The notes: a model not told the origin generated them from the letters alone. A stretch of DNA of 42,512 bases from Candidatus Kaiserbacteria bacterium RIFOXYD1_FULL_42_15 (GCA_001783565.1 MFMT01000023.1:1-42512); one strand, 5' to 3'. Numbered from the stretch's first letter, positions 2,119 through 41,878 are shown. Translations and numbers: made by a program.

Positions 2119-2129
2119 GAATATGAAGA

Positions 2130-2312
2130 CGGACGACGTGGATTGCTCAGCTCTGACTCGCAAAGACGACGAAGACGGATGGTGTGGATTGCCGCGCTCC
2201 CGCTCGCAAAGACGGACGATGGTGGTTTATGTCGAGCGTTGACGTCTTTGCGAGTCATTACACCACAGTGGAATGACGTGGCAATCCATGACGGACGTGG
2301 ATTGCCACGTTC
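2130..2312. repeat. cluster A of the GTGGATTGC-N-CTCGCAAAGACG inverted-repeat family
   Basis: Units lie at 2138-2168 (+), 2184-2214 (+) and 2243-2289 (-, 47-nt long form), with a half unit at 2297-2306. The same module recurs at five other intergenic loci. Confidence 0.85.
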
Positions 2313-2462
2313 ATTTGTATTAGCATACAGATTTCACTCACTCGGTCATAAAAATAAAACTACACTACGTTACGTCTTATTTTTACGACACTCGTTCGTT
2401 CATCTGTAGGGGATGACGGGGCGATCTAGGGTGTCATAAATTACTTGTCACAAAAAATTTAA

Positions 2463-2481
2463 TTAGGGGTTAAACCCCTAA
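2463..2481. repeat. orphan REP-like hairpin TTAGGGGTTAAACCCCTAA
   Basis: It has the same core as the hairpins flanking the RAYT gene (30971-30997, 31635-31661). It lies 2 nt beyond the stop of the minus-strand gene 2484-2753 and is followed on the minus strand by a T run. Confidence 0.7.
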
Positions 2482-2483
2482 CT

Positions 2484-3752: not shown

Positions 3753-3788
3753 GTTAAGGCCGGCGCATGGCGCCGGCCTTAACTTTTT
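3753..3788 (+). terminator. rho-independent terminator
   Basis: A perfect 13-14 bp GC-rich stem (G)TTAAGGCCGGCGC-ATG-GCGCCGGCCTTAA(C) is followed by TTTTT. Confidence 0.85.
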
Positions 3789-3856: not shown

Positions 3857-6727
3857 ATGCATAAAAAAATCAATCACCAAGAAATTGAAGCAAAGTGGCA
3901 AAAGCAGTGGGCAAATAGCGCGATCTATCACACTACTGAAAATCCTGACAAACCAAAAACCTTCGTGCTCGACATGTTTCCTTATCCATCGGGAGAAGGT
4001 CTTCATGTTGGACATCCCAAAGGATATATTGCCACCGACATCTACTCTCGTTTCAAACGCATGACGGGACATGAAGTACTTCACCCAATGGGATGGGATG
4101 CTTTTGGCTTACCGGCCGAGAACTACGCCATCAAGAATAAAGTACATCCCCGAGTGGCAGTAGAAAAAAATGTTGCGCGCTTCAAGGAACAGCTTGGTGT
4201 TCTTGGTTTTGATTATGATTGGGATAGAGAAATAAATACTACCGACCCTGCCTACTATAAATGGACGCAGTGGATTTTTCTACAACTGTTTAAAAAGGGG
4301 TTGGCTTATGAGTCGTATGAACCTATCAACTGGTGCCCTGGTTGTCAGACAGGATTGGCAAACGAGGATCTCGAGAGTGATGGCACTTGTGAGCGTTGCG
4401 GTAGTGTAGTTGAAAAGAGACCGATGCGTCAGTGGGTATTAAAGATTCGTGAATATGCGGACCGAATGCTCGATGACCTAGACATGCTTGAGTGGCCAGA
4501 ACATATCAAAGAAGCTCAGCGTAATTGGATAGGCAGGTCAAAAGGAGCAGAGATAGATTTCAAACTTTTCTCACCTAGGACATCCGATGTCCTAGGTGAG
4601 AATGAAGAAATTGGCGAAGTTACAGTTTTTACGACTCGACCAGATACTCTCTACGGGGCGACTTATTTAGTGCTGGCTCCCGAACATCCATTTATAGAAA
4701 ATGAGATAGAGAAAATTGAAAATAGAAAAGAAGTGGATGATTACATTGCTAAAGCTAAACAAAAAAATGAACAAGATCGCCTTGATGCTACCAAAGAAAA
4801 GACTGGGGTGAAATTGGAAGGTGTTACAGCAATCAACCCAGGAAGTGGAGAAGAGATACCGGTATATATTGCGGATTATGTGCTCGCCAGTTATGGCACC
4901 GGCGCCATTATGGCTGTCCCAGCACATGATGAACGTGATTTTGAGTTTGCTACTAAATTCGGTGTTGAGATAAAGCAGGTGGTAGCACCATTCATTAAAG
5001 CTGATGGTGAGGACTCACCCAGAGATGGTCTTGAGACTTTAGAAAGACCCTGTATAGACATAATTATTGAGCATCCAAATAATGGTACTTTCTTAATACA
5101 GAAAGAAAAGGATGGGGATAGAAACCTTATACATTTTGTAGGAGGCGGTGTTGATGGAGAGGATGATATGACAGCTGTGACTAGAGAGCTCTTAGAGAAG
5201 ACAGGATTTTCCGAATTTGAATTTATGTCGAATAAACCAGTATTTACTACAAAATCCATTGGTTATCGTCATAGTAAGAACAAGAATCAGCAAGGCGTTA
5301 GTAATTTTTATCACATTAAACTAACTGGTCTGGGGCAGGTACGTTCGGAGATAGAAGATGGTAAACATACAGTTGAGTGGCTGACGAGAGAAGAGATTAC
5401 AAAACAAATAACCTGGGCCTGGCATGCAAGATCTTGGGCTGCCTTGAATGGAGAAATGGTATCCACCAATTTGGGAGTTTTAGTAAATTCTGGAGAATTT
5501 GACGGAATGAATTCAGAGGAAGCTAAGAAAGCTATCGTTGAAAAAGTTGGTGGGCGGATGACTAATACTTATAAAATTCGTGATTGGGTGTTTTCACGTC
5601 AGCGTTATTGGGGAGAGCCAATTCCGATTGTTCATTGTGAGAAATGTGGACCAGTAGCTGTTCCTGAAGATCAATTGCCAATAACTCTACCAGAAGTCGA
5701 ACGCTACGAGCCGGCTGGAGACGGACAGTCGCCACTCTCAACTATTCCCGACTGGGTCAACACCACTTGTCCGCAGTGTGGAGAAGCAGGCAAGCGCGAG
5801 ACCAACACAATGCCACAGTGGGCGGGCTCGTCTTGGTACTACCTACGCTACATGGATCCAAAAAATGACCGAGAGCTAGTATCAAAGGAACGTGAAAAAT
5901 ATTGGGCACCGGTTGATATTTACGTTGGCGGTGACCATGCCGTGCGCCACCTTATTTACGCGCGGTTCTGGCATAAATTCTTGTATGACATTGGTGTTGT
6001 ATCTACCGTAGAACCATTCCAACGACTCGAATTCCTTGGTTTTATTCTAGCTGAAGACGGACGAAAAATGAGTAAGCGGTGGGGAAATGTTATCAATCCT
6101 GACGACATTGTGGCGTTAGTGGGGGCAGACAGTTTGCGTGTCTATGAAATGTTCATGGGTCCGTTTGAAAATACTATCGCCTGGTCCAAAGACGGACTGG
6201 CGGGGGCCTGCCGTTTCTTGGAACGAGTTAATGGATTAAGTGCCCACCTGACTGACAATGAATCAGAATCAGTACAGAGACAACTTCATAAGACTATTAG
6301 GAAGGTGGTCGAAGATATTGAAAGCTTCAAATTCAACACGGCCGTCAGTGCCATGATGATATTTATTAATGAAGCGGAAAAGAATGGGTTGTCACAAAAG
6401 ACTTTTGAGCAATTCTTGCAAATTCTGGCACCATTTGCACCACACTTGACTGAGGAACTTTGGCAAGAACTCGGTCACAGCAACTCCATTCATCTGGAGT
6501 CGTTCCCTGTCGCAGACGAGGAATTAGCCAAGGACACAACAGTTGAGATTGGAGTTCAGATTAATGGCAAACTACGTGGCAGTATTGAGGTAGCTCCTGA
6601 TGCCCCGGAGAGTACTGTAACCGACATGGCCAAGGGCAATAGTGTAATCGCCAAGTACCTTGATCAGGCGGAGATTAAGAAAGTGGTCTACGTACCCGGA
6701 CGCATTCTTAATTTCATTATTAATTAG
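3857..6727 (+). CDS. leuS: leucine--tRNA ligase with an extra Nudix-like inserted domain
   Basis: 956 aa. It has the HIGH motif (HVGH), the CP1 editing motifs TTRPDT and GTGAIMAVPAHDERD, KMSKR, and WYYLRY. An extra ~140 aa lies between EFATKFGVEIKQVV and GVLVNSGEFDG. Confidence 0.95.
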   Translation: MHKKINHQEIEAKWQKQWANSAIYHTTENPDKPKTFVLDMFPYPSGEGLHVGHPKGYIATDIYSRFKRMTGHEVLHPMGWDAFGLPAENYAIKNKVHPRVAVEKNVARFKEQLGVLGFDYDWDREINTTDPAYYKWTQWIFLQLFKKGLAYESYEPINWCPGCQTGLANEDLESDGTCERCGSVVEKRPMRQWVLKIREYADRMLDDLDMLEWPEHIKEAQRNWIGRSKGAEIDFKLFSPRTSDVLGENEEIGEVTVFTTRPDTLYGATYLVLAPEHPFIENEIEKIENRKEVDDYIAKAKQKNEQDRLDATKEKTGVKLEGVTAINPGSGEEIPVYIADYVLASYGTGAIMAVPAHDERDFEFATKFGVEIKQVVAPFIKADGEDSPRDGLETLERPCIDIIIEHPNNGTFLIQKEKDGDRNLIHFVGGGVDGEDDMTAVTRELLEKTGFSEFEFMSNKPVFTTKSIGYRHSKNKNQQGVSNFYHIKLTGLGQVRSEIEDGKHTVEWLTREEITKQITWAWHARSWAALNGEMVSTNLGVLVNSGEFDGMNSEEAKKAIVEKVGGRMTNTYKIRDWVFSRQRYWGEPIPIVHCEKCGPVAVPEDQLPITLPEVERYEPAGDGQSPLSTIPDWVNTTCPQCGEAGKRETNTMPQWAGSSWYYLRYMDPKNDRELVSKEREKYWAPVDIYVGGDHAVRHLIYARFWHKFLYDIGVVSTVEPFQRLEFLGFILAEDGRKMSKRWGNVINPDDIVALVGADSLRVYEMFMGPFENTIAWSKDGLAGACRFLERVNGLSAHLTDNESESVQRQLHKTIRKVVEDIESFKFNTAVSAMMIFINEAEKNGLSQKTFEQFLQILAPFAPHLTEELWQELGHSNSIHLESFPVADEELAKDTTVEIGVQINGKLRGSIEVAPDAPESTVTDMAKGNSVIAKYLDQAEIKKVVYVPGRILNFIIN

Positions 6728-6760
6728 TTTGTTTGAATAAAGTACCTGTGCTAGTTAAAC

Positions 6761-6980
6761 GTGGATTGCCACGTCACTCCGCTATCGCTCCATTCCTCGC
6801 AAAGACGGCCAGCGTAGCTGACCGTCGACGACTAAAACTAAAGTTTTAGTCGTCTTTACGAGTGAAACGCAGCAATCCACGTCGTCGTCCCGTCTGTCTT
6901 TGCCTGCCTGCCCTGCATGCCATGCCTGCGCATGCAGGGCAGGCATGGCATGCAGGCGAGTGGCAACGAAGCAATTTACG
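6761..6980. repeat. cluster B of the GTGGATTGC-N-CTCGCAAAGACG family
   Basis: Units are 6761-6807 (+, long form) and 6851-6880 (-). A degenerate minus unit at 6891-6979 has a nested GC-rich palindrome. A perfect 12-bp hairpin lies at 6827-6854 between the first two units. Confidence 0.85.
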
Positions 6981-7093
6981 TTTGATTAACATTGGTGTCT
7001 ATAACTATGTTGACGTATATCAATTCGCATGATATAAATACACTCACGCATTGAGCTACAAAACTCACCCATAGATTAAATACCCTTAATATT

Positions 7094-13176: not shown

Positions 13177-13261
13177 TGGCATGGAACCAATACTAAATTG
13201 CCCTGAATTGGCGCGTCGTTGCGTTGACACTCCATTTTTTGCAATGACAAACAGTGGTAAG

Positions 13262-13386
13262 CAAACGTGGATTGCTTCACTCCGTTCGCCTGTCTGCCAT
13301 GCCTGCGCATGCAGGGCAGACAGGCAAAGACGGTTGTCTGTTCTGCCTGTTCGTCTTTGCGAGGAGCTTGTGACGAAGCAATCCAG
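13262..13386. repeat. cluster C of the GTGGATTGC-N-C(A/T)..GCAAAGACG family
   Basis: Units are 13267-13332 (+) and 13352-13386 (-). The + unit carries the GC-rich core CTGCCATGCCTGCGCATGCAGGGCAG, also seen in cluster B. Confidence 0.85.
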
Positions 13387-14251: not shown

Positions 14252-14307
14252 GAAATTTACGGGTCTCACCCTTAAATTTGAAACAAAGATATAGAACTAG
14301 TTATTTT

Positions 14308-29889: not shown

Positions 29890-30966
29890 ATGAAAGATTA
29901 CTATCAAATTCTCGGACTTCAAAAAGGTGCCTCTCGCGAGGAGGTTAAGAAAGCTTTTCGCAAGCTTTCTTCGCAGTATCACCCCGACAAGAAAACTGGT
30001 GACGAATCCAGATACAAGGAAATAACCGAGGCCTACGCTACCTTAGGCGATGAAAAGAAAAAGGCCGAATATGATACCTATGGTCATTCATTTAGTGGCG
30101 GAGGCGGTAATACTGGTGGTGGTGGACAAGGATTTGGTGGTTTTAATTGGGCTGATTTTCAGAACGCTGGCCAGGGTGGGGAATTTGAATTTGACATTAG
30201 TGATATTTTTGAAAACTTTGGCTTTGGTGGTGGTAGACAAAAAACTGCGCGCGGGCGAGACATTTCAATTGACATTAATTTAGGATTTGAGGAATCAATT
30301 TTCGGAGTGATTCGTAAGGTTCTTCTCACTAAAAATAATATTTGTCAATCATGTAACGGTACTGGTGCTAAGACTGGGACAGAAATGAAAACCTGTACCA
30401 CCTGCAATGGAGCAGGAAAAATCCACGAAACCCGTCAAAGTATCATGGGAAGTTTTTCAACTGTCCGTGAATGTTCAGCTTGTAATGGTACTGGCAAAGT
30501 TCCTAAGGAACGTTGCCCACACTGTGCTGGTGCGGGGATTGCGCGCACTCAAGAAGAAATTGAGATTAAGATACCGACCGGAATTCAAAATGGGGAAGTC
30601 ATTCGTATGACTGGGCGAGGTGAAGCTATGCCCCATGGACAACCCGGCGATTTATATATCAAGGTTCATGTCGAGCCCCATGCCAACATTAAGCGTGACG
30701 GCACTACCTTACTGACAAAATTACCAATAAAAATTACTGACGCTCTACTTGGTGGCAACTACAAAGTTGAAACCCTAGATGGGGTAGTTGAAATAAAAAT
30801 ACCGGCCGGCATCACCCATGGCGAGTTTCTTCGCATCAAAAACAAAGGCGTTCCAATTGACAACCGTCGCGGTGAATTCCTAGTCAAAATAGAAATCGAA
30901 ACCCCCAAACAACTATCCCGCAAAGCCAAGAAACTAATCGAAGACCTCCGCGCCGAAGGCATCTAA
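29890..30966 (+). CDS. dnaJ: molecular chaperone DnaJ
   Basis: 358 aa. It has a J domain with HPD (YHPDK), a G/F-rich region, and four CxxCxGxG zinc-finger repeats. Confidence 0.95.
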   Translation: MKDYYQILGLQKGASREEVKKAFRKLSSQYHPDKKTGDESRYKEITEAYATLGDEKKKAEYDTYGHSFSGGGGNTGGGGQGFGGFNWADFQNAGQGGEFEFDISDIFENFGFGGGRQKTARGRDISIDINLGFEESIFGVIRKVLLTKNNICQSCNGTGAKTGTEMKTCTTCNGAGKIHETRQSIMGSFSTVRECSACNGTGKVPKERCPHCAGAGIARTQEEIEIKIPTGIQNGEVIRMTGRGEAMPHGQPGDLYIKVHVEPHANIKRDGTTLLTKLPIKITDALLGGNYKVETLDGVVEIKIPAGITHGEFLRIKNKGVPIDNRRGEFLVKIEIETPKQLSRKAKKLIEDLRAEGI

Positions 30967-30970
30967 CCCT

Positions 30971-30997
30971 AAACTTAGGGGTTAAACCCCTAAGTTT
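30971..30997. repeat. REP-like hairpin, left flank of the RAYT gene
   Basis: AAACTTAGGGG-TTAAA-CCCCTAAGTTT, an 11-bp stem. It overlaps the RAYT stop codon by 1 nt and lies 4 nt after the dnaJ stop. Confidence 0.85.
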
Positions 30998-31626
30998 TAC
31001 TCTAGGGTATCGGATGATTTTGATTTTAGTCTCCTTAAATAAATATCATTAGCCAGAAATACGGCGTCTTTAAACGAGTAATCAACCTGTTCAACACTGT
31101 ATAATAGCTTGCTTCTAGATATATTTTGATAGTGCAGTGAACTGGAGTGACATATTTCTCTCTCCATTTTTATATTATGCACAAAATGATTTTCATTTAC
31201 ATATGCGAGTAGATAGTTGTATTGTTCATCTGAGTTAACATGAACTCGCTTAAATGTTCCCTGGAACAATGCTCCTGATCTATCATTATCTAAATTGTAA
31301 TAACTAGTATACCCACCACTGACTCTTTTCATGAACTCACTAATACCACCATCGATATTTTGTTTTAAAATTAAATGAATGTGATTAGGTAATAGAGAGT
31401 ATGCCTTTATATTCACCAAACGTTCAGCATTTGTGAATATCTTTTTGTGGGCTAATGCAAAATCAAAATTGATTACTGGTTCTATTGAATTAAACAAATC
31501 AAGTGATTGATAAAAACGTAAATAGTCACGTTTTGATGCAAAAACTTCCCGTTTATCAACACCACGATTAAACACGTGGTATATTTCACCAGTCAGCAAT
31601 GGAACAATTTTTCTTGACATAACCAT
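30997..31626 (-). CDS. REP-associated tyrosine transposase (RAYT, IS200/IS605-like HUH Y1 transposase)
   Basis: 209 aa. It has the N-terminal YHVFNRGVDKREVF, the HUH motif LLPNHIHLIL, and a C-terminal catalytic-Tyr region LAYVNENHFVH. Confidence 0.85.
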   Translation of the reverse strand: MVMSRKIVPLLTGEIYHVFNRGVDKREVFASKRDYLRFYQSLDLFNSIEPVINFDFALAHKKIFTNAERLVNIKAYSLLPNHIHLILKQNIDGGISEFMKRVSGGYTSYYNLDNDRSGALFQGTFKRVHVNSDEQYNYLLAYVNENHFVHNIKMEREICHSSSLHYQNISRSKLLYSVEQVDYSFKDAVFLANDIYLRRLKSKSSDTLE

Positions 31627-31634
31627 ATTATATC

Positions 31635-31661
31635 AAACTTAGGGGTTTAACCCCTAAGTTT
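31635..31661. repeat. REP-like hairpin, right flank of the RAYT gene
   Basis: AAACTTAGGGG-TTTAA-CCCCTAAGTTT is the exact reverse complement of the left hairpin. It lies 8 nt upstream of the RAYT ATG. Confidence 0.85.
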
Positions 31662-31721
31662 TTATCCCAAGGTGATAAAGCGCTAGCTGTTGATTAATCT
31701 TATAATGTAGATAAGTAAACT

Positions 31722-32207
31722 ATGGACACGGCATACATATTTAGTATTCTTCAGGAACTGATTTATATCTTGGTAGTCTTTGGTTTTTTTCTTGGTTATG
31801 CCATTTTTCGGGGCCGGCAAGCAATCATTAATTTGATTACCGGACTTTATTTAGCATTACTTATTTCATTGGAATTTCCGTACTACGACATCCTCCTCTC
31901 ACAAGCAACAACTGCTCATAGTCAATCAATAGTGAAGCTAATTCTATTTGCTATATTTACATTATTAACTACTATTCTAGTCACTCGGATTATGCCTGAT
32001 GAATACCGAGAGAAAAAAATTGAAAGCATTTTCAAAAAAATACTTTTAGCAATGGCAGGCACCATACTCATCACGGTCTTTAGTTTTCATGTCCTACCCG
32101 TCACCGAATTCCTTACCCCTGGCACACCCATCCAATCTCTCTTTGCCCCCGCTCAATACTTCTTCTGGTGGCTGTTAGCTCCGTTGCTAGTTTTGTATTT
32201 GAATTAA
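31722..32207 (+). CDS. integral membrane protein (4-5 TM), unknown function
   Basis: 161-aa hydrophobic ORF. It is possibly CvpA-like, but I cannot support that assignment. Confidence 0.45.
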   Translation: MDTAYIFSILQELIYILVVFGFFLGYAIFRGRQAIINLITGLYLALLISLEFPYYDILLSQATTAHSQSIVKLILFAIFTLLTTILVTRIMPDEYREKKIESIFKKILLAMAGTILITVFSFHVLPVTEFLTPGTPIQSLFAPAQYFFWWLLAPLLVLYLN

Positions 32208-38431: not shown

Positions 38432-38493
38432 AAAATCTAGGAATAGATTCAAGTGCTGTGGCCCGCCCCGTTAGAAACTATGTTTCAAACAGG

Positions 38494-38739
38494 GCTCGCA
38501 AAAACGACGTTAACGAAAACGTGGATTGCCACGTTGCGACTCGCAAAGACGACGGTGGGTATGAGATGTTTATTGCGTCGTCTTCGCGAGGAGGGAGCTC
38601 GCAAGCGAGTGACGTGGCGATCCATGGTGGTTTGACGGTGTGGATTGCTTCGTTGCGACTCGCAAAGACGGCGTTGACGAACGACGTGGCAATCCATAAT
38701 GTACGAAAACGTGGATTGCCTAATAACCTCACGAAGACG
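38494..38739. repeat. cluster D of the GTGGATTGC-N-CTCGCAAAGACG family
   Basis: Units are 38521-38551 (+), 38579-38625 (-), 38640-38670 (+) and 38711-38739 (+). Half units lie at 38494-38505 and 38689-38697. Confidence 0.85.
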
Positions 38740-38780
38740 TATTTGATGCGGTCATTAAAAAAATGAGGTACAATATAAAA

Positions 38781-40487: not shown

Positions 40488-40506
40488 CGGTTGAATAGTT
40501 GATTAT

Positions 40507-40690
40507 GTCGTTGCGAGTCGCAACGTGGCAATCCACAGCGAAGGCAGACGTGGATCGCTTCGTTGCGACTCGCGAAGACGAAGTTGACCGGACGGATATG
40601 GATTGCCACCTGCCGCGCTTCGCTCGCAGCTAAAGGCGCTCGCAAAGACGGACGTGACAGACGTGGATTGCTTCGTGTGCTCGCAAAGAC
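40507..40690. repeat. cluster E of the GTGGATTGC-N-CTCGCAAAGACG family
   Basis: Units are 40507-40536 (-), 40550-40580 (+), 40598-40650 (+, with an internal duplication of the CGCTCGCA arm) and 40663-40690 (+). Confidence 0.85.
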
Positions 40691-40777
40691 TCATGTGGTG
40701 GATGTAGCGATATGCGATCAACCAGCAATACTCATTTCGAAAACTAAATTAAATACCAAACATGATAGAATTACTGT

Positions 40778-41612: not shown

Positions 41613-41878
41613 GTGGACTGCTTCGCGAGCTTGCGGTGACGACTTACTTTCGTCTTTACGAGGAATGGAGCGATAGCGGAATGACGTGGCAATCCATGGT
41701 AATGACGAACGGTGTGGATTGCTTCCTTACAGGAACTGTTCAGGTTGTCACTATTTTTGCAAAATAGCAGGCAACCTCTTGCGAAGCTCCAAGTGTTCGC
41801 TTCTCACGTGCGACTCGCAAAGACGACGAGGAGGGGCGATGGTGAGACGGATTGTTGTGACAGGGTTGGGCAATCCAT
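41613..41878. repeat. cluster F of the GTGGATTGC-N-CTCGCAAAGACG family
   Basis: There is a degenerate unit at 41613-41643. Unit 41651-41697 (-) matches 44 of 47 nt of the reverse complement of unit 6761-6807. Unit 41714-41825 (+) has its arms separated by an ~80-nt insert. Half units lie at 41847-41857 and 41870-41878. Confidence 0.85.

What the first reader, a model, noticed from the sequence alone, without database searches (positions are those of the whole stretch)
30967..31663. RAYT-type HUH transposase bracketed by perfectly inverted 27-nt hairpins (REPtron-like unit) inserted after dnaJ
The minus-strand gene 30997-31626 has the hallmarks of REP-associated tyrosine transposases: YHVFNRG, the HUH motif NHIHLIL, and a C-terminal Tyr region AYVNENH. 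It is flanked by AAACTTAGGGG-TTAAA-CCCCTAAGTTT (30971-30997) and AAACTTAGGGG-TTTAA-CCCCTAAGTTT (31635-31661). Each forms a hairpin with an 11-bp stem, and the two are exact reverse complements, which the asymmetric loop reveals. This is the organisation described for REPtrons in proteobacteria, here in a CPR-like genome. The left hairpin overlaps the RAYT stop and, followed by TTTT, probably also terminates dnaJ. Its cognate hairpin differs from the far more abundant GTGGATTGC family. This raises the question of which repeat family, if either, this enzyme mobilises.
Basis: partly seen in the sequence, partly recalled or inferred. Interest (0 to 1): 0.65.

Follow-up and report, generated by a model that had tools for sequence, protein, structure and literature searches.

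The report
RAYT-like gene flanked by cognate palindromes
A small gene for a single-strand-DNA-cutting enzyme related to REP-associated transposases sits after dnaJ between two copies of its own 27-base palindrome; the same arrangement is inherited at this spot across many Patescibacteria, so it is a new, CPR-wide member of a known kind of domesticated transposase.

Summary
Two 27-nt perfect palindromes (30971-30997, 31635-31661) differ only in the central base and bracket a 209-aa minus-strand gene.

The protein is a Y1 HUH enzyme:
- Pfam Y1_Tnp scores just above its cut-off.
- HUH (H82, H84) and Y142-x3-N146 are invariant in the family.
- The predicted fold matches the E. coli REP-associated transposase (4ER8) best.

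In 78 homologous loci from Patescibacteria, SUP05 gammaproteobacteria and Chloroflexota, 51 carry the same lineage-specific palindrome on both sides. Only 1 of 254 control ORFs does. The flanking hairpin is therefore the cognate repeat, not the GTGGATTGC family.

The "inverted" orientation rests on one base and is not conserved (15 inverted, 14 direct).

The unit is not a recent insertion. The order grpE-dnaK-dnaJ-[gene]-membrane gene is syntenic across diverse Patescibacteria. The gene's tree tracks DnaJ (Mantel r=0.66), and many relatives show empty sites, which read as losses.

The palindrome is dispersed at low copy: a third copy in the window, at least 8 other sites in metagenomes, and 4 exact copies in a 997-kb relative. 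All metagenome solo copies are intergenic, most next to a stop codon.

It fails the NCBIfam RAYT equivalog, and the window hairpin lacks a GT[AG]G foot.

Verdict: a new member of the REPtron/TIRtron kind. Interest is moderate.

The parts
30971..30997 (.). dnaJ-side palindrome AAACTTAGGGGTT-A-AACCCCTAAGTTT, downstream end of the gene. It overlaps the gene's stop codon by 1 nt and lies 4 nt after the dnaJ stop.
   Evidence: (I5); same position in orthologous loci
30997..31620 (-). Y1 HUH (RAYT-like) gene. The listed ORF runs to 31626 (209 aa); the probable start is the ATG at 31620 (M3). HUH = H82-I-H84; Tyr motif Y142-V-N-E-N146-H; conserved C-terminal tail with H160-S-S-S163.
31627..31635 (-). 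Extended -10-like element TGATATAAT, immediately downstream (gene orientation) of the upstream palindrome and 6 nt before the M3 ATG. Putative promoter of a leaderless or near-leaderless transcript (inferred).
   Evidence: Read. A TATAAT-like hexamer follows the upstream palindrome in about 12 of 14 close orthologous loci, by eye. Not called by the -35/-10 scan.
31635..31661 (.). Palindrome on the membrane-gene side, AAACTTAGGGGTT-T-AACCCCTAAGTTT, upstream end of the gene. It lies between divergent genes, so no transcript ends there.
2462..2482 (.). Solo copy of the same palindrome core (TTAGGGGTT-A-AACCCCTAA, 9-bp stem). It lies at the 3' end of the minus-strand DUF3467 gene, which converges with ychF.

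Best explanation
The 691-bp unit 30971-31661 is a REPtron/TIRtron-type locus. It holds a single, vertically inherited, domesticated Y1 HUH (RAYT-like) enzyme gene, bounded on each side by its cognate short perfect palindrome.

Shown:
- The enzyme has the Y1 fold, with invariant HUH and Tyr-x3-Asn.
- The same palindrome flanks the gene in most homologues, and its sequence changes with lineage (co-evolution or concerted evolution).
- Extra copies of the same palindrome lie elsewhere in the same genomes at low copy number, in intergenic DNA at or near gene 3' ends.
- The locus is syntenic and its tree follows DnaJ.

Inferred from IS608 TnpA and E. coli TnpA-REP:
- A dimer binds the palindrome when it is extruded as a hairpin on single-stranded DNA, for example the lagging-strand template.
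- It cleaves next to the hairpin through a 5'-phosphotyrosyl link (Y142, with metal held by H82/H84/N146) and rejoins.
- This copies, homogenises or occasionally relocates the palindrome.
- Because the palindrome is perfect, both strands offer the same substrate.
- Two copies are at once direct and inverted repeats. That explains the cassette inversions (L004, L011), the frequent clean losses (empty sites) and the random loop orientation.

The hairpins probably double as bidirectional terminators. The dnaJ-side copy occupies the place where RAYT-less relatives have an ordinary terminator. The upstream copy abuts the gene's own -10 box, which would allow autoregulation.
For: Protein:
- Pfam Y1_Tnp 24.4 bits against a cut-off of 23.
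- AF2 model pLDDT 88.9.
- Foldseek best hit 4er8_A, E=4.9e-6, followed by IS608 and ISDra2 TnpA.
- Invariant H82, H84, Y142, N146, S162, S163 in 32 sequences.

Cognate association:
- 51 of 78 homologous loci share at least 16 nt between their two flanks, against 1 of 254 control ORFs. All 15 loci at 50% identity or more share 14-29 nt.
- AGGGGT-N3-ACCCCT occurs 27 times in 106 kb of RAYT+ dnaJ loci and 0 times in 220 kb of RAYT- loci.

Inheritance:
- Synteny grpE-dnaK-dnaJ-[gene]-mem161 in 12 of the 14 closest loci (L001-L012, L014; partly seen in L009, L010).
- Mantel r=0.66, p=0.0003 between RAYT and DnaJ distances.
- RAYT+ lineages are basal and scattered in the DnaJ tree.
- Empty sites exist.
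- The cassette is inverted in L004 and L011.

Dispersal:
- Third copy in the window.
- The exact 23-mer sits at 8 further distinct intergenic sites in metagenomes. For six of the eight an ORF stop lies within about 25 nt. Several of these contigs carry the window's lineage-specific GTGGATTGC repeats.
- 4 exact copies in a 997-kb Nomurabacteria contig.
- 5-7 copies in MAGs, sharing MAG-specific outer stems.
Against: - No biochemical evidence exists for this family.
- It scores 28.9 against a cut-off of 80 for the NCBIfam REP_Tyr_transpos equivalog.
- Sequence searches of the PDB find nothing.
- The Y motif is YVNENH, not the class-2 Y---NP.
- The window palindrome has no GT[AG]G foot.
- Copy number is far below classical REPs, so active dispersal is weakly supported. 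Selection for a protein-binding site would also keep the copies alike.
- The window's own genome could not be scanned beyond 42.5 kb.
- Single-copy status per genome is inferred, not proven.
- The hairpins are not called as terminators by the simple scan.
Confidence: 0.7

Rival explanations
1. The 691-bp unit is an autonomous minimal IS200-like insertion sequence. Its two palindromes are its ends, and it repeatedly targets the hairpin or terminator site downstream of dnaJ.
For: - Presence among close relatives is patchy, with clean empty sites.
- The cassette occurs in both orientations.
- The gene is AT-richer than its neighbours: GC 0.31-0.33 against about 0.40.
- At some solo sites the palindrome sits in the apex of a longer site-specific palindrome. 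This could reflect hairpin targeting.
Against: - The same site is occupied in lineages whose RAYT proteins are only 53-63% identical.
- RAYT distances track DnaJ distances.
- Each protein cluster is seen on only 1-8 contigs.
- There is no tnpB.
- The ends are identical palindromes, not distinct left and right ends.
- The Y motif is not the IS200 Y---Q (Table 1 of PMC6006769).
Confidence: 0.1
2. The protein now works mainly as a sequence-specific DNA-binding factor, either an autoregulator or a regulator of genes at the dnaK-operon boundary. The palindromes are double-stranded operator sites, and no DNA is moved.
For: - Perfect dyad symmetry is typical of operators for dimers.
- The upstream palindrome abuts an extended -10 (TGATATAAT) in the window, and a TATAAT-like box follows it in most orthologous loci.
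- Copy number is very low.
- Linkage to grpE-dnaK-dnaJ is conserved, including a second position upstream of grpE in L017 and L018.
Against: - HUH, Tyr and Asn are invariant across the family, which argues for retained catalysis.
- Solo copies lie at or near gene 3' ends, not at promoters.
- In more distant homologues the palindrome is also inserted in-frame inside the gene itself. That is a footprint of mobility, not of regulation.
Confidence: 0.1
3. The hairpins are ordinary intrinsic terminators that happen to flank a conserved gene. They have no specific link to the protein.
For: - They have an A-tract, G+C stem, T-tract design.
- The dnaJ-side copy replaces the terminator seen in empty-site relatives.
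- Solo copies lie at or near gene 3' ends.
Against: - The upstream copy lies between divergent genes, where nothing terminates.
- Both flanks carry the same sequence in 51 of 78 loci against 1 of 254 controls.
- The motif is absent from 220 kb of RAYT-less relatives.
- The terminator scan calls none.
Confidence: 0.03

Closest known systems
E. coli REPtron: TnpA-REP/RAYT (YafM, PDB 4ER8) with flanking REPs; TnpAY1 subclass 2.2, Bertels Group 2
   Same: - Y1 HUH fold; best structural match.
- Gene bracketed by its own palindromic repeat, with further copies in intergenic DNA.
- Low gene copy number and vertical inheritance, as described for RAYTs in PMC5581495 and PMC6006769.
- C-terminal tail with a conserved Ser-Ser.
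   Different: - Only 14% identity in the structural alignment.
- Fails the NCBIfam equivalog (28.9 against 80).
- Y motif is YVNENH instead of YIHYNP.
- Short perfect palindromes with no GTAG foot, no bulges and no REPIN doublets.
- A few copies per genome instead of hundreds.
TIRYT/TIRtron (Di Nocera 2013, PMC3733652), roughly TnpAY1 subclass 2.1 (Quentin 2018), Bertels Group 1
   Same: - HuH NH[YF]H-type and an 'FQ' motif. More distant relatives in my loci have Y[IV]HLNP, as in subclass 2.1.
- The gene is flanked by identical repeats that are partly or wholly self-complementary.
- The published TIR consensus GGGGWSAS fits several orthologues' palindrome centres (GGGGTCAG, GGGGTGAC).
- Flanking repeats occur at low to moderate copy number.
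   Different: - The window centre GGGGTTAA does not fit GGGGWSAS.
- No C-terminal HTH domain was detected by Pfam.
- The protein is shorter (209 against a median of 238 aa).
- Membership could not be tested against the published sequence sets.
TnpAY1 subclass 2.4 (Bertels Group 4) with 'double-foot' palindromic REPs and REP insertions inside tnpA
   Same: - Fully palindromic cognate repeats. Some orthologues even have GTAG...CTAC feet (L006, L009, L018).
- In-frame cognate palindromes lie inside the gene in 7 more distant homologues.
- HuH is NH[IFV]H.
- Chloroflexota relatives were found.
   Different: - The subclass has a WQ motif and YIxNNP, against FQ and YVNENH here.
- The window gene has no internal palindrome.
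- The window hairpin foot is TTAG.
IS200/IS605 TnpA (IS608, ISDra2)
   Same: - Same fold and catalytic chemistry.
- Hairpin-flanked gene.
   Different: - No Y---Q motif.
- No tnpB.
- Identical rather than distinct end hairpins.
- Syntenic, diverging with the host instead of occurring as multiple near-identical copies.

Membership tests
Y1 HUH transposase superfamily (Pfam PF01797 Y1_Tnp) | Profile match at or above the gathering score | tested here: met
   24.4 bits against a cut-off of 23, E=3.3e-5, residues 68-145. The margin is narrow. Most homologues carry a precomputed PF01797 hit.
Y1 HUH transposase superfamily (Pfam PF01797 Y1_Tnp) | HUH motif, and one catalytic Tyr on the C-terminal helix followed at +4 by a polar metal ligand | tested here: met
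   H82-I-H84 and Y142-x3-N146 are invariant in 32 sequences. Y142 lies on helix 133-144 of the model.
Y1 HUH transposase superfamily (Pfam PF01797 Y1_Tnp) | TnpA/RAYT fold | tested here: met
   The model has pLDDT 88.9. Foldseek top hit is 4er8_A (E=4.9e-6, TM 0.48/0.58), followed by IS608, ISDra2 and IS200 TnpA.
REP-associated tyrosine transposase (NCBIfam NF047646; TnpAY1 class 2) | Equivalog profile score at or above the cut-off | tested here: not met
   28.9 bits against a cut-off of 80.
REP-associated tyrosine transposase (NCBIfam NF047646; TnpAY1 class 2) | Y---NP signature (Quentin 2018, Table 1) | tested here: not met
   The window and close family have YVNENH: Asn is kept, Pro is replaced by His. 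Homologues at 30-47% identity have YIHxNP or YVHLNP.
REP-associated tyrosine transposase (NCBIfam NF047646; TnpAY1 class 2) | Gene flanked by its own family-specific palindromic repeat (REPtron arrangement) | tested here: met
   Window. Relatives: 51 of 78 loci against 1 of 254 control ORFs.
REP-associated tyrosine transposase (NCBIfam NF047646; TnpAY1 class 2) | Cognate repeat carries a 5' GT[AG]G foot | tested here: not met
   The window foot is TTAG. Some orthologues have GTAG...CTAC (L006, L009, L018); others have ACAG, TAAG or CGAG.
REP-associated tyrosine transposase (NCBIfam NF047646; TnpAY1 class 2) | Cognate repeat dispersed in many intergenic copies in the same genome | tested here: inconclusive
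   Dispersed, but at low copy. There is 1 extra copy in the 42.5-kb window and 8 further sites in metagenomes. A 997-kb relative has 4 exact copies and MAGs have 5-7. The window's whole genome is not available.
REP-associated tyrosine transposase (NCBIfam NF047646; TnpAY1 class 2) | Low gene copy number and mainly vertical inheritance (Bertels 2017) | tested here: met
   Conserved synteny. Mantel r=0.66, p=0.0003. Protein clusters are on 1-8 contigs. Strict single-copy status was not proven.
IS200/IS605 insertion sequence | Y---Q motif, several near-identical copies, distinct left and right subterminal hairpins, often tnpB | tested here: not met
   The motif is YVNENH. There is no second copy in the window. 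The ends are identical palindromes. The neighbouring genes are dnaJ and a membrane protein.
TIRYT/TIRtron (subclass 2.1) | Flanking repeats with GGGGWSAS; NH[YF]H / FQ / Y[IV]HLNP; C-terminal HTH domain | tested here: inconclusive
   FQ is present. HuH is NHIH in the window and NH[FY]H in relatives. GGGGWSAS fits L003, L005, L006 and L013 but not the window (GGGGTTAA). No HTH domain was detected.

The most novel reading that the evidence does not exclude
The enzyme is not a relic transposase but a host factor. It has been kept for a very long time at the boundary of the dnaK operon in ultra-small Patescibacteria genomes. Its job would be to create, repair and homogenise a small set of perfectly palindromic, bidirectional terminator hairpins, or to resolve such hairpins at replication forks. 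That would be a genome-maintenance role for a Y1 HUH nuclease, with palindrome-mediated inversion and deletion as side effects.
Probability: 0.15. Interest if true: 0.65.

Novelty: new member of a known kind. Interest (0 to 1): 0.4.

Why it matters
RAYT/REP systems have been studied almost only in Proteobacteria, with hundreds of REP copies per genome. This work shows several things:
- A distinct RAYT-like clade with a YVNENH motif is widespread in Patescibacteria.
- It is syntenic at the dnaJ 3' end across several labelled groups.
- It always travels with a short perfect palindrome that co-evolves with it.
- It exists in genomes of about 1 Mb that keep few dispensable genes.

That makes it a clean, minimal system, with two flanking copies plus a handful of solo copies. 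It can be used to ask what domesticated Y1 enzymes do for the host, how palindrome pairs drive inversion and loss, and whether REP-like hairpins are installed as terminators. The practical gain for annotation is that these genes should not be counted as active IS elements in CPR genomes.

Tried and rejected
- Sequence searches of the PDB, with the protein and with the family profile, gave only chance hits. Only the fold comparison linked it to 4ER8.
- I first scanned genome contigs with TTAGGGGTNNNACCCCTAA. The narrower pattern was complete.
- The window's own genome is not in the genome or JGI collections. The best orthologue is 63% identical, and the identical protein is found only on a 1.3-kb Logan contig. 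A genome-wide count for this organism was therefore impossible.
- I suspected the conserved 'GGGATAA/TTATCCCA' next to the upstream hairpin was a cleavage or guide site. It is also present in RAYT-less empty sites, so it belongs to the membrane gene's upstream region.
- I considered CIRCE, the heat-shock operator, because of the dnaK linkage. I rejected it because there is no 9-nt spacer and the sequence varies by lineage.
- The RAYT cassette is 99.7% identical to a relative whose dnaJ is 89% and mem161 81% identical. This looked like recent transfer. The sliding-window profile shows a generally 97-100% identical genome with divergent patches, so no claim is made.
- The similarity between 2463-2507 and 30975-31019 beyond the hairpin (D12) lies in the 3' ends of two non-homologous genes. 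I treat it as chance.
- A literature search for RAYTs in CPR found nothing relevant.

Full report
**Observation.** The sequence is as described.
- 30971-30997 reads AAACTTAGGGGTT-A-AACCCCTAAGTTT and 31635-31661 reads AAACTTAGGGGTT-T-AACCCCTAAGTTT.
- Each is a perfect odd palindrome. As single-stranded DNA it folds into a 12-bp stem with a 3-nt loop, dG -11.3 to -13.6 kcal/mol, z about -5, and no shuffle folds as well.
- The two are exact reverse complements (I5). Because each is its own reverse complement except at the centre, that statement rests on one base, A against T.
- The 21-nt core has 3 matches in the window against 0.00 expected. The third is at 2462-2482, at the 3' end of a minus-strand DUF3467 gene that converges with ychF.
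- The ORF 30997-31626 (-) encodes 209 aa with YHVFNRG, NHIHLIL and AYVNENH. Comparison with homologues places the likely start at M3, the ATG at 31620.
- Almost every other gene in the window is on the + strand.

**The protein.**
- Pfam Y1_Tnp matches at 24.4 bits against a gathering score of 23.
- The NCBIfam equivalog for REP-associated tyrosine transposases reaches only 28.9 of the 80 bits needed.
- 932 homologues were found. The best are 55-67% identical, about 200-210 aa long, mostly from Patescibacteria, and some are labelled RayT by JGI.
- In an alignment of 32 sequences, H82 and H84 (HUH), Y142, N146 (Y-x3-N) and S162/S163 in a conserved C-terminal tail are invariant.
- Sequence searches of the PDB found nothing.
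- An AlphaFold model (pLDDT 88.9, pTM 0.86) matches the E. coli REP-associated transposase bound to a REP hairpin best (4er8_A, E=4.9e-6). IS608, ISDra2 and IS200 TnpA follow.
- A profile search of 1.84 billion representatives gives 22,940 relatives at E<=1e-3 and 611 at E<=1e-30.

**Are the hairpins tied to the gene?** I fetched 80 homologous loci from species-representative genomes.
- Most carry one and the same palindrome within a few nucleotides of both the start and the stop. The sequence differs between lineages. Examples are AATCTTAGGGGTTaAACCCCTAAGATT, AAATTAGGGGTCaGACCCCTAATTT, ATACAGGGGTCgGACCCCTGTAT, GTAAGGGATGtCATCCCTTAC in Patescibacteria, CTGAGCAGGCaagGCCTGCTCAG in SUP05/Thioglobus, and CCTTCCCGGAAGC-type in Chloroflexota.
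- 51 of 78 genes share at least 16 exact nucleotides between their 100-nt flanks, against 1 of 254 other ORFs in the same loci. All 15 loci at 50% identity or more share 14-29 nt.
- In the dnaJ neighbourhood of related genomes, AGGGGT-N3-ACCCCT occurs 27 times in 106 kb where the gene is present. Twenty-six of these flank the gene. It occurs 0 times in 220 kb where the gene is absent.
- This is the signature of a REPtron and rules out 'ordinary terminators'.
- Among loci where it can be scored, the loop orientation of the two copies is inverted in 15 and direct in 14. The 'perfectly inverted' arrangement is therefore not a family feature.

**Age and inheritance.**
- The order grpE-dnaK-dnaJ-[gene, antisense]-161-aa membrane protein is the same as in the window in 12 of the 14 closest loci (L001-L012, L014; only partly seen in L009 and L010). 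Their MAGs are labelled Kaiserbacteria, Saccharibacteria, Minisyncoccia and Paceibacterota.
- DnaJ identity falls from 82% to 59% while the RAYT-like protein falls from 63% to 53%.
- Pairwise distances of the two proteins correlate (Mantel r=0.66, p=0.0003) and the trees share their main clades.
- Using DnaJ as bait, many close relatives have dnaJ followed directly by the membrane gene. Between them is an ordinary G+C-rich terminator hairpin and a TTATCCCA motif. That motif also follows the right palindrome in the window.
- These are empty sites. They define the unit precisely as 30971-31661.
- In the DnaJ tree the occupied sites are scattered and include most basal branches of the syntenic clade. 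This favours ancient presence with repeated loss.
- In L004 and L011 the cassette lies in the opposite orientation relative to dnaJ. In L017 and L018 a 43%-identical homologue sits upstream of grpE.
- A 94.5%-identical environmental relative (L293, L295) has the same cassette, with 2 synonymous differences and none that change the protein. The background there is mosaic, so I draw no conclusion about transfer.

**Dispersal.**
- The exact 23-mer of the window hairpin occurs in 23 metagenome contigs. Two are the orthologous cassette. The other 21 collapse to 8 distinct sites.
- All 8 sites are intergenic. For six of the eight an ORF stop lies within about 25 nt, in one case between convergent genes.
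- Contigs from four of these sites also carry the GTGGATTGC/CTCGCAAAGAC repeats. These are abundant in the window and almost absent from 740 kb of relatives' loci, so these contigs come from the window's lineage.
- At three sites the flanks extend the palindrome with site-specific sequence, as if the unit sat in the apex of an older hairpin.
- A complete scan for TTAGGGGTCNGACCCCTAA finds 4 exact copies in a 997-kb Nomurabacteria contig, two of them flanking its gene. Several MAGs have 5-7 copies, and these share the MAG-specific outer stem of the gene-flanking copies.
- The family is dispersed but small. That is closer to the 12-14 copies reported for RAYT Groups 1 and 4 than to the 57-140 of Groups 2 and 3 (PMC5581495).

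**Other anatomy.**
- In gene orientation, the upstream palindrome is followed directly by TGATATAAT (31635-31627). The M3 ATG follows 6 nt later. A TATAAT-like box occupies this place in about 12 of 14 close loci, read by eye. This suggests a leaderless or near-leaderless transcript and possible autoregulation. Both points are inferred.
- The dnaJ-side palindrome begins 4 nt after the dnaJ stop and overlaps the gene's own stop. The simple scan does not call it a terminator because the T-run is part of the stem.
- The gene is AT-richer than its neighbours, GC 0.31-0.33.

**Which repeat family?**
- The GTGGATTGC repeats form G+C-rich clusters in six intergenic regions of the window.
- They occur once in 106 kb around orthologues.
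- No second Y1 gene is in the window.
- The cognate repeat of this enzyme is therefore the flanking palindrome.

**Comparison with the literature.** Quentin et al. 2018 (PMC6006769) divide TnpAY1 into classes.
- Class 2 (RAYTs) has Y---NP.
- Subclass 2.1 has NH[YF]H, FQ and Y[IV]HLNP and corresponds to the TIRYTs of Di Nocera et al. 2013, whose genes are flanked by repeats with GGGGWSAS (PMC3733652).
- Subclass 2.4 has fully palindromic 'double-foot' REPs and REP insertions inside the gene.
- The window family has NH[IFY]H, FQ, the Ser-Ser tail and Y-x3-N, but His in place of Pro. More distant homologues in my loci have YIHxNP or YVHLNP.
- Several orthologues' palindrome centres fit GGGGWSAS, and some have GTAG...CTAC feet.
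- Seven more distant homologues carry their cognate palindrome in frame inside the gene, at two hot spots.
- The family therefore sits among the atypical class-2 RAYTs (2.1/2.4-like). I could not test membership against the published sets.
- None of these papers mentions CPR, and literature searches found no description of RAYTs in Patescibacteria.

**Mechanism.**
- Shown: fold, catalytic residues, co-varying flanking palindromes, low-copy dispersal in intergenic DNA at or near gene 3' ends, vertical inheritance, inversion and loss.
- Inferred by analogy with IS608 TnpA and E. coli TnpA-REP: a dimer binds the hairpin extruded on single-stranded DNA, cleaves beside it through a 5'-phosphotyrosine at Y142 with metal on H82/H84/N146, and rejoins. 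This copies or homogenises the palindrome.
- Perfect symmetry makes both strands substrates. It also makes any two copies both direct and inverted repeats, which accounts for the inversions, deletions and random loop orientation.

**Verdict.** The unit is an old, domesticated locus rather than a fresh insertion, and the orientation argument is weak. It is a new member, a Patescibacteria-wide clade, of the known REPtron/TIRtron kind. Interest is moderate (0.4).

Noticed in passing
window 2119-2320, 6750-6990, 13260-13375, 38490-38750, 40505-40700, 41650-41845: G+C-rich composite repeats fill six intergenic regions. Their units are built from GTGGATTGC(CACGT) and CTCGCAAAGACG / CGTCTTTGCGAG, so they are CGTC/GACG-tagged and partly self-complementary. 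They are specific to this lineage: 12 and 10 motif hits in the window, against 1-2 in 740 kb of relatives' loci. No transposase for them lies in the window.
   Followed up: partly
window 4568-4602 (inside leuS, 3857-6727): A perfect 35-nt palindrome, TTCTCACCTAGGACATCcGATGTCCTAGGTGAGAA, lies in frame inside leucyl-tRNA synthetase. It encodes FSPRTSDVLGEN at the start of the editing domain. Its core GGACATC-c-GATGTCC resembles the cognate hairpin of a RAYT paralogue in L016. It may be an intragenic REP of a second family.
   Followed up: partly
window 3857-6727: The leucyl-tRNA synthetase carries a NUDIX domain (aa 398-525) inserted after the editing domain.
   Followed up: no
L015, L016, L017, L018, L055, L061, L070: More distant RAYT-like genes (36-53% identical) contain a third copy of their own flanking palindrome in frame inside the coding sequence. 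It sits either in the variable loop before the HUH strand (aa about 65-74) or just after the Tyr motif (aa about 148-164).
   Followed up: yes
L004 and L011 versus the window and L001-L014: The whole cassette between the palindromes is inverted relative to dnaJ and the membrane gene in two non-sister lineages. In L017 and L018 a homologue lies divergently upstream of grpE instead of after dnaJ.
   Followed up: partly
L280-L302 (sites A, B, G: e.g. L298 4101, L281 2468, L290 1670): At some solo sites the flanks extend the shared palindrome with site-specific complementary arms, for example AAAACATAACCAAAAA-core-TTTTTGGTTATGTTTT. The core looks as if it was inserted into the apex of an older hairpin. 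Downstream copies at RAYT genes also have longer, locus-specific stems.
   Followed up: no
L145, L160, L303, L304, L309, L313, L318, L332, L345 (CP019169.1) and others: The same core TTAGGGGTCNGACCCCTAA is repeated many times in unrelated genomes. Betaproteobacteria bacterium GR16-43 has at least 10 stretches; others are Sutcliffiella horikoshii, several Clostridia and Actinomycetota MAGs, and a MAG labelled Pacearchaeota. I did not check whether these have their own RAYT/TIRYT.
   Followed up: no
L001 4646-5065, L005 4790-5209; gaps in L212, L222, L225: A 139-aa YigZ/IMPACT-like gene is variably present between dnaJ and the RAYT-like gene. In L001 it is itself bracketed by two copies of the palindrome (4622-4644 and 5119-5141).
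   Followed up: no
window 31757-32156 and 30157-30356 versus L293/L295: A relative that is otherwise 97-100% identical drops to 72-86% in the membrane gene after the cassette, and to about 75% in the Gly-rich linker of dnaJ. This is mosaic divergence.
   Followed up: no
window 14253-14280 and 3753-3783: Two further intergenic hairpins. The first, AAATTTACGGGTctcACCCTTAAATTT, is a possible degenerate relative of the GTAAGGGGT-type palindromes of other lineages. The second, GTTAAGGCCGGCGCatgGCGCCGGCCTTAAC, lies between a 299-aa ORF and leuS.
   Followed up: no
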